Below are positions 43,001 through 46,000 of a DNA stretch of 64,000 nt, piece after piece (position 1 is the first letter of the stretch; every line of letters starts with the position of its first letter). Origin of the DNA: Zootoca vivipara (lineage: Eukaryota). The DNA lies in NCBI RefSeq assembly GCF_963506605.1, contig NC_083278.1, positions 51,584,001 to 51,648,000 of the forward strand, written 5' to 3'. Made by a program: the position numbers.

Positions 43001-46000
43001 GGTGGGTGGGGTGGGGTGGGGTGGTCCGACGGCAATGCTTCTACTTAGTGTATGTGTGGGTTTTGTCTCAGCGGCAATAGTGTGGCTTCTCTTTACTATT
43101 TGCTTGTGGTGGGAACAGGGCCGGATTTAGGTTTAATGAAGCCCTAAGCTACTGAAGGTAATGGGGCCCTTTATATATCCAGCTGGTCCTTTGTCAACAA
43201 CAAATTGTCGGTTTTTTGTGATGAATATATGCTACGTTGATAATTTATGGACCTAATAGTTATCTAAAGCCATTTGCACATGTTGCCATGCAACCAGTCC
43301 ATGCAGAATGTAGGCATCCTATATATAGAAATGAGCAAACCAGTGATATTTGAGGGAGCAGGCTAGCAGGCGGGGCCCAATACTTACGTCGTAGGAGCCT
43401 ACACAACACAAAACACTGTTGCTGTATGTAGGTTTTATTTTGTTTGTTTTTTATCTTATATTTTGGAAATGTACATCCAGGTTTTTCTCTTTATATTTTT
43501 TGGCGCCCCCTAAGCTTTAGCTTGCTTAGCTTATACTCATAGCTGCCAAGTTATCCCTTTTTTACAGGGATTTTCCCTTATGCTGAATAGGCTTCCTCGC
43601 GAGAAAAGGGAAAACTTGGCAGCTATGCTTATACTGCACGTACATAAATCCGACAGACCTGTCAGGAGTAAGCACTGAGGGTTGTTTCAAGGCTGGTTGC
43701 TCCCCACGCTTTGGAAGGGAGGCTTGTCACCCCTCGGCAGATACTGGGCAGCAGGCTTAGGTAAGCGGGTAGACTAGGGATGGGTAGAGCTCGCCCGCCC
43801 CTCCTGGCGAAGCAGCTAAGGTGGAGGGAGCGCCGCGTTGGGGACGCGAAGTGCAGCTGCGCGGATGGCGCGCGCCTTCCCCGCCGCCGCCGCCGCCCGA
43901 TCCTGCCCTGCCTATTCGCGGGAGGGGCCTCGTGGAGGAGGAGGGCCTTTAAGCCGGGCGCCCCAACCGCCCAGGCCGGCACTGCAGCTCTGACAACCGC
44001 CGTCGCAGTTCCAGCTCCGCTGCGGCCTGCACGCTCCTCATCCGCCTGGCAACGCTTCGCCTCGCCGCCATGGCCAAGCCTTTGTCGGGGCAGGTGTGCG
44101 TGGTGACGGGCGCCTCTCGGGGCATCGGAAAGGGCATTGCGCTGCAGCTGTCCGGGGCGGGCGCCACCGTGTACATCACGGCTCGGCACCGCGAGGCGCT
44201 GGAGGCGGCGGCGGCGGAGGTGCGGGCCCGCGGAGGGAAGTGCGTGCCGGTGGTGTGCGACTCGTCCCGGGAGGAAGACGTGGTGGCGCTGTTCGAGCGC
44301 GTCCGGCAGGAGCAGGCGGGCCGCCTGGACGTGCTGGTCAACAACGCCTTCTCCGGGGTGGGCGCCATCGTGGAGGAGATCGGGCTGCCCTTCTGGGAGA
44401 GCTCGACGGCCCTGTGGGACCAGATCAACAACGCGGGCCTGCGGGGCCACTACATCTGCACCGTCTACGCCGCCCGGCTGATGGTGCCCGCCGGGAGGGG
44501 GCTCGTCGTTACCATCTCGTCGCCCGGAGGGCTGCGCTACATGTTCGACGTGCCCTACGGGATCGGCAAGGCCGCCTGCGACCGCCTGGCCGCCGACTGC
44601 GCCGTCGAGCTGCGCCCCTTCGGCGTGGCCTCGGTGGCGCTGTGGCCGGGCTTCGTGCGCACCGAGAGCCTGGCGAAGGAAGTGGAGAACAGGACGGGAC
44701 CCATGATAGCCAGGCTGAAGGAGAAGATGGCCTCCATGGGAGAGACCCCCGAAGTGAGCGGGAAGTGCGTGGTGAGCCTGGCGTCGGACCCGCGCGTCAT
44801 GCGCCACAGCGGGAAGGTGCTCCTCAACCCGGATCTCGCCCGCCTTTACGGCTTCAAGGATGTGGACGGCAGGGAAGTCTTCAACTACCTCTCGGTGCGG
44901 GACATCCTCACGGAGCTGATGCCCAAACTGTCCGGTTTATTCCGCCTCATACCTCGGTTCATCACCATCCCCAAATGGGCTCTAGCTCTCTATTCTAGCA
45001 AGTTTTCTGTTTACCCACCCATCCAGCCGCCTTACCTTAAAACAAAAAAGCAAGCCTAAGAGGTATATTGTGCAGCGTTACAGCTATGCCTTTAACCTCC
45101 GATTGCTCAAAACTTCATTTTGACACTTCCTTGGCTGGTGCATTAATTATTCTGTTATTACAGGTGTTTGCAATGGAAAACACTTTCAAGCTTGAATGAG
45201 AAATCATTTTAAGACAGTTTTCCATTTGCCTCTTAAAAGGGCTGATTTCTGCAATATCTTCTGTGCTTGCTAGAAAGCTGTTAACGATTTCTTTACAGTT
45301 CTGTGCAGTATTCAGTTATAAGCCCAAGTCTGGCACTTTGGGGGTGCATCTTTAATCATTCCTGTATTTCAGATGTGACAGAAGTAGCTGAAACAAGCTA
45401 CTCGGCAATTAAATGCATTTGCTCTGAGAGACTTTGTCATAGCTGGCAATACTTTGCCCCCACTTTTTTGCCCCTGTGAAACGCACCATTCCCACCCACC
45501 CCTAAATTCTCTACATGGGGCCTGGTGATATCACTGCATCTTTATCAAAGAGCAAACACTGTTTTAGATCTGGAAGATCATCCCACTGCACGAAGGGAGG
45601 ATAGTTTGGCACTTTGGGAAAATGAACAAACGGCTCAGGTAATTCAGATAGTACACACCCTTTGTTTTGCTCTAATATATGTATTGGTACGGGTTAAAAA
45701 AAAACCTTTGCAACGTCTTAAGCTCCATTTCAAAAGATGTGTGAAATTCTAAAAAGGCATATCTAGGCTTCTTGAGAAAAAAGATGTTCCCTGGAACAGA
45801 CAAAGGTGAAGCATTCTTAACTAGAGGTGAGGAATCTTTTTTCAACTGGTGGGCCACATTCCCTTTTGGACAACTTTCTGAGGGCTACAGGTAAAGGTGG
45901 GCAGAGCAGTCAATATAAATTTAACTTGGACATTAATTTTTGCCTTTTACCCGTGTCCTCAATCCAGACAAGCATGAGCACATCATCAGAGTTCAAGGGC

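What the first reader, a model, noticed from the sequence alone, without database searches (positions are those of the whole stretch)
44070..45059. Intact intronless DHRS1-like gene head-to-head with an expanded sulfotransferase array: candidate reduce-then-sulfate gene cluster
Seen: a 329-codon single-exon ORF with complete SDR motifs and its own CpG island, about 7 kb from the putative promoter of SULT copy A and divergent from it. Established: human DHRS1 is a multi-exon gene on another chromosome and an NADPH-dependent carbonyl reductase for steroids and xenobiotics; SULTs sulfate hydroxyls and amines. Inference: a retained retrogene. Its position beside a diversifying SULT3 array could form a co-regulated phase I/phase II module, but the adjacency may be coincidental.
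Basis: partly seen in the sequence, partly recalled or inferred. Interest (0 to 1): 0.7.

Follow-up and report, generated by a model that had tools for sequence, protein, structure and literature searches.

The report
Lizard's ordinary, intronless DHRS1 gene
This is an intact single-exon DHRS1 reductase gene of a lacertid lizard, shared with other lizards, snakes, tuatara and turtles, so it looks like the standing reptile DHRS1 and not a new copy teamed up with the neighbouring sulfotransferases.

Summary
Window 44070..45059 (+) is an intact 329-codon ORF with all SDR motifs, inside a 1.3-kb CpG island. It diverges from three tandem SULT3-like genes on the minus strand.

It is DHRS1. The best PDB match is human DHRS1, 2qq5, at E 1.4e-102. 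An opossum DHRS1 aligns over its whole length in one uninterrupted stretch, so the coding region has no intron.

It is not a lineage-specific extra copy. About 30 lepidosaur and turtle proteins annotated as DHRS1 share its length class and a C-terminal extension that all 19 non-reptile proteins lack. They form one clade that roughly follows the species tree.

The gene lies between the SULT3 array and ZUP1. SULT3 and ZUP1 are linked in sturgeon, quail and mouse. DHRS1 shares a contig with ZUP1 in 9 of 10 reptiles and 0 of 13 mammals.

An old retroposition followed by replacement of the parent gene is the best reading, but loss of the parent is unproven.

Nothing supports a co-regulated reduce-then-sulfate module. 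The spacer is about 8 kb and full of repeats, only DHRS1 has a CpG island, and a tegu gene model implies the opposite orientation. Interest is modest.

The parts
44070..45059 (+). DHRS1 coding sequence: 329 codons plus TAA, in a single coding exon. Residues 313-329 are a reptile-specific C-terminal extension.
   Evidence: ORF. PDB 2qq5 at E 1.4e-102. One tblastn stretch with opossum DHRS1. Extension. AlphaFold2 model pLDDT 76.7, best fold match 2qq5 with TM 0.91 normalised by the length of 2qq5.
43701..45000 (.). CpG island covering the likely DHRS1 promoter, the 5' UTR and most of the coding sequence.
   Evidence: GC 0.69, CpG o/e 0.94, 143 CpG. GC boxes at 43795, 43893 and 43967. GC3 is 0.88 overall and falls to 0.65 in the last fifth of the ORF.
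45060..45430 (+). Probable DHRS1 3' UTR, up to the first polyadenylation signal (ATTAAA at 45408). Inferred, with no RNA evidence.
   Evidence: Pattern scan.
25898..34479 (-). SULT3-like ('amine sulfotransferase-like') copy A. Six coding exons: 34479-34330, 33898-33686, 31686-31558, 30983-30885, 29233-29042, 26020-25898.
   Evidence: tblastn with the Zootoca protein P0123, 95-100% identity per exon. Pfam Sulfotransfer_1. All exons are stop-free, with ATG and TGA present.
11303..20204 (-). SULT3-like copy B, six coding exons.
   Evidence: Identity to copy A is 248 of 300 aligned residues, counted exon by exon.
939..2118 (-). SULT3-like copy C. Only the first two coding exons are present; the rest lies beyond the window start.
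35644..35850 (-). Block upstream of SULT copy A that is 90-92% identical to blocks upstream of copies B and C. It is a candidate SULT promoter or non-coding first exon (inferred).
   Evidence: blastn within the window. Homology between the SULT units ends at about 36884.
36885..43700 (.). Spacer between the SULT unit and the DHRS1 CpG island. It holds interspersed repeats, a 92-nt palindromic element (3 copies) and a microsatellite. No coding match was found.
48727..60799 (-). ZUP1/ZUFSP deubiquitinase gene, 8 coding exons, convergent with DHRS1. Its own CpG island lies at 60401-61150.
   Evidence: Pfam Peptidase_C78 on 4 exons. PDB 6ei1 at E 4e-29. tblastn with Podarcis ZUP1, P0141. CpG island.
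42551..42719 (+). Left copy of a ~170-bp direct repeat that flanks DHRS1. The right copy is at 45812-45966. Meaning unknown.
   Evidence: 81% identity, and the only two copies in the window.

Best explanation
This is the lizard's working DHRS1 (SDR19C1) gene. It has a single coding exon and is driven by its own CpG-island promoter.

It is orthologous to the DHRS1 of other squamates, tuatara and turtles. It is therefore older than the lepidosaur-turtle split.

The most likely history, which is inferred, runs as follows:
1. A processed DHRS1 mRNA was reverse-transcribed and inserted between ZUP1 and the SULT3 array in a stem reptile.
2. The copy gained a promoter and a ~17-residue C-terminal extension.
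3. It took over from the multi-exon parent (retrogene replacement).
4. It seems to be missing from birds.

By homology, the protein should act as an NADPH-dependent carbonyl reductase, like human DHRS1.

Its position next to the sulfotransferases is a by-product of where it landed, not a functional cluster.
For: Shown:
- An intact ORF with the full SDR motif set.
- 113 of the 118 columns that are invariant in 19 non-reptile DHRS1 proteins are kept in this protein.
- The best PDB sequence match is human DHRS1, 2qq5, at E 1.4e-102; the next match is at 1.2e-29. The best fold match is also 2qq5.
- The coding part has no intron.
- 29 named reptile proteins of 292-379 aa (26 of them 324-338 aa) form one clade (SH-aLRT 99) that is sister to mammals. 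Its inner order is roughly that of the species.
- All 29 reptile rows run past the '...SKF' end, where all 19 non-reptile rows stop.
- None of the best 120 hits is a reptile protein of the 310-313-aa type, and none is a bird. The ZUP1 search returned 26 bird entries among its best 120, so bird proteomes are well represented.
- The contig length of DHRS1 equals that of ZUP1 in 9 of 10 reptile species with both values, and in 0 of 13 mammals.
- A tegu model (P0154) joins ZUP1 and a complete DHRS1 in one protein, so the two genes are neighbours there.
- Sturgeon (P0139) and quail (P0201) models join ZUP1 and a SULT.
- In mouse, Sult3a2, Sult3a1 and Rsph4a lie within about 125 kb, with Zufsp in the same interval (passages read).

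From passages read:
- Human DHRS1 is at 14q12 with highest expression in liver (PMC10589603).
- Human DHRS1 reduces PGE1 (PMC13056738, citing Zemanova 2019).

Recalled, not tested here: the mammalian and fish DHRS1 genes are multi-exon.
Against: - No poly(A) remnant or target-site duplication was found. The A9 run at 45696 has no signal before it. This is expected for an old event, so the hallmarks of retroposition are simply absent.
- I could not look for a multi-exon parent in this genome or any other reptile genome, so 'sole ortholog' and 'replacement' rest on the absence of such proteins among the best 120 hits.
- Gekko japonicus has DHRS1 and ZUP1 on different scaffolds (2,449,132 versus 338,813 bases).
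- There are no DHRS1 and ZUP1 contig data for the same fish or amphibian species. The ancestral location is therefore polarised only by mammals and by the fused ZUP1-SULT models, which could skip a gene lying between them.
- The reptile stem branch is longer than the mammalian one (0.46 versus 0.28). Identity to outgroups is only 2-5 points lower than for mammals.
- No RNA evidence for expression was available.
Confidence: 0.68

Rival explanations
1. This is a lineage-specific retained retrocopy that exists beside a multi-exon parental DHRS1. It is co-regulated with the diversifying SULT3 array as a reduce-then-sulfate (phase I/phase II) module.
For: - Divergent orientation and proximity to three SULT3-like genes.
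- Further distinct Zootoca SULT proteins (P0131, P0132) lie on the same contig, so the array is expanded.
- Human DHRS1 is most highly expressed in liver (PMC10589603 passage). Mouse Sult3a genes are liver genes.
- A carbonyl reduction does produce a hydroxyl group that a sulfotransferase could use (general biochemistry).
Against: - The gene type is shared by squamates, tuatara and turtles, and tracks the species tree.
- No reptile protein of the canonical type appears among the best 120 hits.
- About 7.9 kb of repeat-rich spacer separates the DHRS1 CpG island from the SULT upstream block.
- The SULT genes have no CpG island of their own near their first exons.
- The tegu model P0154 puts DHRS1 on the ZUP1/SULT strand, so the head-to-head arrangement is not conserved.
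- SULT3-ZUP1 linkage exists without DHRS1 in the quail and sturgeon models and in mouse.
Confidence: 0.06
2. The event was not retroposition. The gene moved by a DNA-level rearrangement, or always lay here, and lost all its coding introns later, for example by recombination with its own cDNA.
For: - No poly(A) tail or target-site duplication is visible.
- The gene has a full CpG-island promoter, which a bare retrocopy would have had to acquire.
- There are no outgroup synteny data for fishes or amphibians.
Against: - Loss of every coding intron at once, together with a new chromosomal neighbourhood, is the usual signature of retroposition (established knowledge).
- DHRS1 is on another contig than ZUP1 in all 13 mammals compared.
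- ZUP1 and a SULT are joined directly in the sturgeon and quail models.
Confidence: 0.2
3. The ORF is a decaying or non-functional copy that stays open only because the sequence is GC-rich.
For: GC-rich DNA gives long open frames by chance. The antisense frame at 43662-44936 is open for 424 codons.
Against: - The ORF is colinear with DHRS1 over its full length, with no frameshift.
- 113 of 118 deeply invariant columns are kept, including the catalytic N120, S150, Y163 and K167.
- Identity to orthologues across squamates is 72-81%.
- The start context matches the recalled Kozak consensus.
Confidence: 0.02

Closest known systems
Human DHRS1 / SDR19C1 (PDB 2qq5)
   Same: - Same family and fold. 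Sequence match E 1.4e-102 over residues 4-260. Foldseek TM 0.91, normalised by the length of 2qq5.
- Same cofactor and catalytic motifs.
- Same hydrophobic tail, '...PKW..L..SKF'.
   Different: - The lizard gene has one coding exon. The human gene is multi-exon (recalled) and lies at 14q12 (PMC10589603 passage).
- The lizard protein carries 17 extra C-terminal residues, predicted disordered with pLDDT below 50.
- It lies next to ZUP1 and SULT3, not on a different chromosome from them.
Annotated reptile DHRS1 proteins (for example Rhineura floridana P0002, Elgaria P0003, Gopherus P0025, Sphenodon P0026)
   Same: - Identity of 65-81%.
- Same 324-338-aa length class and the same C-terminal extension.
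- Same clade.
- Same chromosome-size contig as ZUP1 in 9 of 10 species.
   Different: - Nothing of substance. The window's gene is one more member of this set.
- Tiliqua and Sphenodon each carry two copies that are sisters to each other.
- The gene structures of these orthologues could not be seen.
Retrogene replacement and 'orphan' retrogenes (amphioxus SYCP1, PMC5803294; human orphan retrogenes, PMC3548309; abstracts seen in the search listing only)
   Same: A single-exon copy at a new locus that carries on the parent's function, while no parent is detected.
   Different: Loss of the parent is not shown here. The age (before the lepidosaur-turtle split) has erased the poly(A) tail and target-site duplications.
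Mouse Sult3a2-Sult3a1-Rsph4a-Zufsp region on chromosome 10
   Same: SULT3 genes are linked to ZUP1/Zufsp, as they are in the window.
   Different: No DHRS1 is named among the genes of that mouse interval in the passages read. Mammalian DHRS1 is on other contigs than ZUP1 in 13 of 13 species compared.

Membership tests
Classical short-chain dehydrogenase/reductase (SDR) superfamily | Glycine-rich cofactor motif TGxxxGxG at the N-terminus | tested here: met
   T13-G-A-S-R-G-I-G20. T13, G14, G18 and G20 are invariant in the 47-row alignment A2.
Classical short-chain dehydrogenase/reductase (SDR) superfamily | Catalytic tetrad Asn-Ser-Tyr-Lys, with YxxxK | tested here: met
   N120, S150, Y163 and K167 are all invariant in A2. 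The motif definition itself is recalled.
Classical short-chain dehydrogenase/reductase (SDR) superfamily | Profile match above the curated cut-off, and a Rossmann fold | tested here: met
   Pfam adh_short scores 123.4 bits against a cut-off of 26.6. The AlphaFold2 model has alternating strands and helices, and its PDB matches are all SDRs.
DHRS1 (SDR19C1) orthologue group | Closest to DHRS1 rather than to any other SDR, over the full length | tested here: met
   2qq5 at E 1.4e-102 versus the next PDB sequence at 1.2e-29. Of the best 120 database hits, every one that carries a family name is DHRS1; the others are unnamed or named only 'hypothetical' or 'unnamed protein product'. One colinear stretch with opossum DHRS1 residues 1-310.
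DHRS1 (SDR19C1) orthologue group | Placement in the vertebrate DHRS1 tree in line with the species tree | tested here: met
   The reptile clade is sister to mammals, with amphibians and fishes outside. 'Quick' ML tree of 48 named rows. The unnamed hits and most mammals were left out.
DHRS1 (SDR19C1) orthologue group | NADPH-dependent carbonyl reductase activity | not testable with these tools
   Inferred from homology only. R39, which follows the second strand, is invariant and fits NADP(H) preference (recalled rule).
Retrogene (processed gene copy) | Lacks the introns of the parent gene | tested here: met
   No interruption in the coding part. That other vertebrate DHRS1 genes have introns is recalled, not tested. 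A UTR intron cannot be excluded.
Retrogene (processed gene copy) | Sits at a locus unrelated to the parental one | tested here: inconclusive
   Same contig as ZUP1 in 9 of 10 reptiles and 0 of 13 mammals. ZUP1-SULT joined models in sturgeon and quail. No outgroup species has both values.
Retrogene (processed gene copy) | Poly(A) remnant and short target-site duplications | tested here: not met
   Only an A9 run at 45696-45704, with no signal before it. The 170-bp flanking direct repeats are not like target-site duplications. Their absence is expected at this age.
Retrogene (processed gene copy) | A parent gene present elsewhere, or demonstrably lost | not testable with these tools
   No eukaryotic genome collection was available. 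Only the 64-kb window could be searched, and it holds one DHRS1 locus.
Co-regulated divergent gene pair or metabolic gene cluster | Shared bidirectional promoter (starts within about 1 kb) | tested here: not met
   9.6 kb from ATG to ATG. About 7.9 kb from the SULT upstream block to the CpG island, filled with repeats.
Co-regulated divergent gene pair or metabolic gene cluster | Arrangement conserved across species beyond background synteny | tested here: inconclusive
   Linkage to ZUP1 is conserved. The tegu model P0154 implies that DHRS1 is on the other strand there. Sceloporus DHRS1 and a SULT share a contig length.
Co-regulated divergent gene pair or metabolic gene cluster | Co-expression and consecutive steps on one substrate | not testable with these tools
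   No expression or enzyme data. No paper was found on DHRS1 in lizards.
SULT3 (amine sulfotransferase) tandem array | Sulfotransfer_1 domain, closest named relatives SULT3/ST3A1, same-strand tandem copies | tested here: met
   Pfam E 3e-12 to 5e-15 on single exons. Hits are named 'amine sulfotransferase-like' and 'ST3A1'. Three copies on the minus strand. 'TYPKSG' is present in each first exon (the motif's role is recalled).

The most novel reading that the evidence does not exclude
The DHRS1 of living reptiles is a retrogene that replaced its multi-exon parent before lepidosaurs and turtles split. It landed in the older ZUP1-SULT3 interval, gained a CpG-island promoter and gained a C-terminal extension conserved across reptiles. 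It was later lost in birds.

The boldest version adds that its long stay beside the SULT3 array reflects functional coupling of carbonyl reduction and sulfation.

My searches found no paper that describes this.
Probability: 0.5. Interest if true: 0.45.

Novelty: new member of a known kind. Interest (0 to 1): 0.3.

Why it matters
The gene itself is ordinary. NCBI already names it DHRS1 in about 25 reptile species.

What may be new is its history. It would be a clean, very old case of retrogene replacement in reptiles, datable by a shared C-terminal extension and a fixed insertion site between two genes whose linkage is older. It also shows an apparent loss in birds.

That history is a useful marker for annotators and for studies of retrogene fate outside mammals.

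The proposed reduce-then-sulfate cluster would have been the interesting part, and nothing found here supports it.

Tried and rejected
- **Accession-number adjacency.** I tried to use accession numbers of DHRS1, ZUP1 and SULT proteins as a proxy for gene order. The listing of cluster members answered that its database is switched off. I did not resend it, so gene order in other reptiles stayed unchecked.
- **Single-sequence structure prediction.** It gave a useless model (pLDDT 38.9). I replaced it with an alignment-based model.
- **Bacterial-type promoter and terminator scan of 34000-46500.** Counts were at shuffle level (14 versus 15.5, and 11 versus 14.9) and the scan does not apply to a vertebrate.
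- **Rfam scan of the whole window.** 0 matches.
- **Poly(A) and target-site duplication search around the gene.** Nothing convincing.
- **LTR-mediated retroposition.** I considered this because of the 170-bp direct repeats that flank the gene. I rejected it as the original event. At 81% identity the repeats look too alike to date from an insertion that predates the lepidosaur-turtle split (my judgement, not calculated), and they lack LTR-like ends.
- **Literature.**
  - No paper joins DHRS1 with retrogene. The 3 hits include one where the match is to DHRS12 and DHRS13.
  - None on DHRS1 in lizards. I opened one of the hits; its only match is to DHRS12.
  - None on SULT3 in reptiles beyond one tilapia paper.
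  - None linking DHRS1 to the genes missing in birds.
  - The 11 papers holding both 'DHRS1' and 'chicken' are, judging by their titles, not chicken studies.
  - Supplementary tables were closed. The bird missing-gene lists of PMC4290089 and the exon tables of PMC9859523 may bear on bird loss and on exon numbers.
- **dN/dS.** Not computed, because no coding DNA of other reptiles was available.
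Full report
**Organism and scope.** The window has no N. It comes from a lacertid lizard, not from a human. The SULT exon search returned 'amine sulfotransferase-like [Zootoca vivipara]' proteins on a contig of 120,539,924 bases. That is the same length as the contig holding the window's own DHRS1 protein, P0001. The neighbouring SULT and ZUP1 genes are spliced. I searched and compared them exon by exon only and never built the joined protein models, so whole-protein statements about those two genes rest on per-exon results.

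**The observation.**
- The ORF 44070..45059 (+) is real: 329 codons from ATG to TAA.
- The start context is GCCGCCATGG, and an in-frame stop lies 120 bases upstream.
- The SDR glycine motif (T13-G20), N91-N-A-F, and the catalytic N120, S150, Y163 and K167 are all present. They are invariant across 47 aligned DHRS1 proteins.
- Pfam adh_short scores E 1e-35.
- A CpG island spans 43701-45000 with GC 0.69 and CpG observed/expected 0.94. The window as a whole has 0.41. GC3 is 0.88, falling to 0.65 in the last fifth of the ORF.
- An antisense frame is also open for 424 codons, so openness alone means little here. Homology is what counts.

**Identity.**
- The best PDB sequence match is human DHRS1, 2qq5, at E 1.4e-102. 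It is colinear over residues 4-260. The next sequence scores 1.2e-29.
- An alignment-based AlphaFold2 model (pLDDT 76.7) has 2qq5 as its best fold match. The TM-score is 0.91, normalised by the length of 2qq5.
- Residues 305-329 have pLDDT below 50.
- Opossum DHRS1 residues 1-310 align to 44070-45005 in one stretch. The coding region therefore has no intron, and the window holds only this one DHRS1 locus.
- Of the 118 alignment columns that are invariant in 19 non-reptile DHRS1 proteins, 113 are unchanged here.

**Surroundings.**
- Three SULT3-like genes lie upstream on the minus strand. Copy A is 34479-25898, copy B is 20204-11303, and copy C starts at 2118 and runs off the window.
- Every exon of copies A and B is stop-free, and each copy has its ATG and TGA. 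The two copies share 248 of 300 residues, counted exon by exon.
- Single exons match Pfam Sulfotransfer_1.
- Homology between the SULT units reaches 36884. A block at 35644-35850 is 90-92% identical among the three copies, which makes it a candidate promoter or first exon.
The distance is 9.6 kb from ATG to ATG, and about 7.9 kb from the SULT block to the CpG island. The spacer holds interspersed repeats, three copies of a 92-nt palindromic element and a microsatellite.
- Downstream, ZUP1/ZUFSP lies on the minus strand in 8 coding exons (60799-48727) and is convergent with DHRS1. Four of its exons match Peptidase_C78, one matches PDB 6ei1 at E 4e-29, and a Podarcis ZUP1 maps over all eight.

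**Age and orthology.**
- The database search lists DHRS1 proteins in this order. Squamates come first (69-80% identity), then turtles (66-73%) and two tuatara proteins (67-70%). Almost all of these are 324-338 aa long.
- Mammals, amphibians, lungfish, coelacanth, shark and lamprey follow at 59-62% identity and 309-313 aa.
- No reptile protein of the short type appears among the best 120, and no bird does.
- The ZUP1 search listed 26 bird entries among its best 120, so bird proteomes are well represented in the database. Crocodilians appear in neither list, so their absence says nothing.
- I built a maximum-likelihood tree with the 'quick' method from 48 named rows. I left out the unnamed hits, most mammals and the partial Lerista row.
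- In that tree all 29 reptile rows form one clade (SH-aLRT 99, stem length 0.46). The clade is sister to mammals (stem 0.28).
- Inside the clade, tuatara, turtles and squamates come out as separate groups. The squamate group is supported at 83, and the order among the three is unresolved. Within squamates geckos branch first, and the window's gene sits with Rhineura and Elgaria.
- All 19 non-reptile rows end at the same column ('...SKF'). All 29 reptile rows run on beyond it, by 17 residues in the window.
- The gene type therefore dates from before lepidosaurs and turtles split.

**Locus history.**
- Taking equal 'longest contig' length as a proxy for the same contig, DHRS1 and ZUP1 share a contig in 9 of 10 reptile species that have both values. 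These are Rhineura, Tiliqua, Hemicordylus, Candoia, Pantherophis, Paroedura, Eublepharis, Emydura and Carettochelys.
- Gekko japonicus is the exception, and its assembly is fragmented.
- The two genes share a contig in 0 of 13 mammals, of which 8 have chromosome-size contigs.
- A tegu model (P0154, 821 aa) runs from ZUP1 straight into a complete DHRS1 that is 76.7% identical to the window's. The two genes are therefore neighbours in the tegu, on the same strand. In the window they are on opposite strands.
- Sturgeon (P0139) and quail (P0201) models join ZUP1 to a SULT.
- In mouse, Sult3a2, Sult3a1 and Rsph4a lie within about 125 kb, and Zufsp is in the same chromosome 10 interval (passages of 10.1101/2021.05.11.443564 and PMC4348743).
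- Human DHRS1 is at 14q12 (passage of PMC10589603).
- SULT3-ZUP1 linkage thus looks older than the presence of DHRS1 between them.

**Interpretation.** Four things point to one old retroposition into the ZUP1-SULT3 interval, followed by loss of the parent gene:
- the single coding exon;
- the new neighbourhood;
- the shared derived C-terminus;
- the longer stem branch.

This is an inference with several gaps:
- Retroposition hallmarks are absent. There is only an A9 run with no signal before it, and no target-site duplication.
- That other vertebrate DHRS1 genes have introns is recalled, not tested.
- No genome could be searched for a parent gene.
- No fish or amphibian species has data for both genes.

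The rival explanation, DNA-level movement with later loss of all introns, cannot be excluded.

**Function.** By homology, the protein should be an NADPH-dependent carbonyl reductase. Human DHRS1 reduces PGE1 (PMC13056738 passage citing Zemanova 2019). Its steroid and xenobiotic substrates are recalled from that 2019 paper, which I did not read.

**The cluster idea.** Nothing found supports a co-regulated reduce-then-sulfate module:
- There is no shared promoter.
- The promoter types differ: a CpG island at DHRS1, and none near the first exons of the SULT genes.
- The spacer is full of repeats.
- The orientation is apparently different in the tegu.
- The SULT3-ZUP1 linkage explains the adjacency as an accident of where the gene inserted.
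- Expression could not be tested, and I found no paper on DHRS1 in lizards.

**Literature.** No paper in the library joins DHRS1 with retrogene or intronless. In some searches, the one SDR gene-structure paper matches only DHRS12 and DHRS13. None links DHRS1 to the genes missing in birds. Supplementary tables were closed. The missing-gene lists of PMC4290089 and the exon tables of PMC9859523 might bear on these points.

**Verdict.**
It is the standing reptile DHRS1 rather than a recent retained copy, and the module idea is unsupported.
- The gene is already annotated in many reptiles. Its probable history as an old retrogene replacement is a new member of a known kind.
- Interest is modest.

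Noticed in passing
window 54805-57969: A GC-rich tandem array of about 22 copies of a 143-bp unit (94% matches, GC about 0.68, CpG o/e 0.80). It lies inside the ZUP1 intron between the exons at 58275-58165 and 53758-53555. It gives long open frames on both strands that are not genes.
   Followed up: partly
window 42551-42719 and 45812-45966: A ~170-bp direct repeat (81% identity) flanks the DHRS1 gene at a spacing of about 3.26 kb. These are the only two copies in the window. It could be two insertions of one repeat family, or a trace of a local duplication or rearrangement. It is unexplained.
   Followed up: partly
protein P0154 (Salvator merianae), compared with window 44070-60799: A tegu gene model fuses ZUP1 with a complete DHRS1 downstream on the same strand. 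In the window the two genes are convergent. This implies either an inversion of the DHRS1 segment within Lacertoidea or a faulty model or assembly.
   Followed up: partly
window 39131-39222, 40737-40828, 43538-43629: Three copies of a 92-nt element with 26-30-nt terminal inverted repeats (MITE-like). One of them lies directly upstream of the DHRS1 CpG island.
   Followed up: no
window 35644-35850, 20596-20749, 2456-2657: A block upstream of each SULT copy is 90-92% identical between copies. The first-coding-exon regions are only 72-76% identical at the DNA level. Conservation above the coding level suggests a shared promoter or non-coding first exon, or gene conversion.
   Followed up: partly
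window 6096-6542 and 12568-13248 (minus strand): Fragments of reverse transcriptase (Pfam RVT_1, E 3e-10 and 3e-12) from non-LTR-type retroelements lie in the SULT region. Several other repeated ORF families without a Pfam match also occur.
   Followed up: partly
window 62001-63900: Three further CpG islands lie beyond the ZUP1 promoter island (60401-61150). I recognised no coding exon there. They may belong to the next gene, which I recall as RSPH4A in mammals; this was not tested.
   Followed up: no
proteins P0006/P0007 (Tiliqua) and P0026/P0031 (Sphenodon): Two DHRS1 copies exist in each of these species. The copies are sisters to each other in the tree, and in Tiliqua they share a contig length. 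These are lineage-specific duplications of the reptile-type gene.
   Followed up: no
proteins P0131, P0132 (Zootoca), compared with window 939-34479: Two further annotated Zootoca SULT3-like proteins on the same contig match none of the three window copies closely (50-95% identity per exon). The array therefore has at least five members, and part of it lies outside the window.
   Followed up: partly
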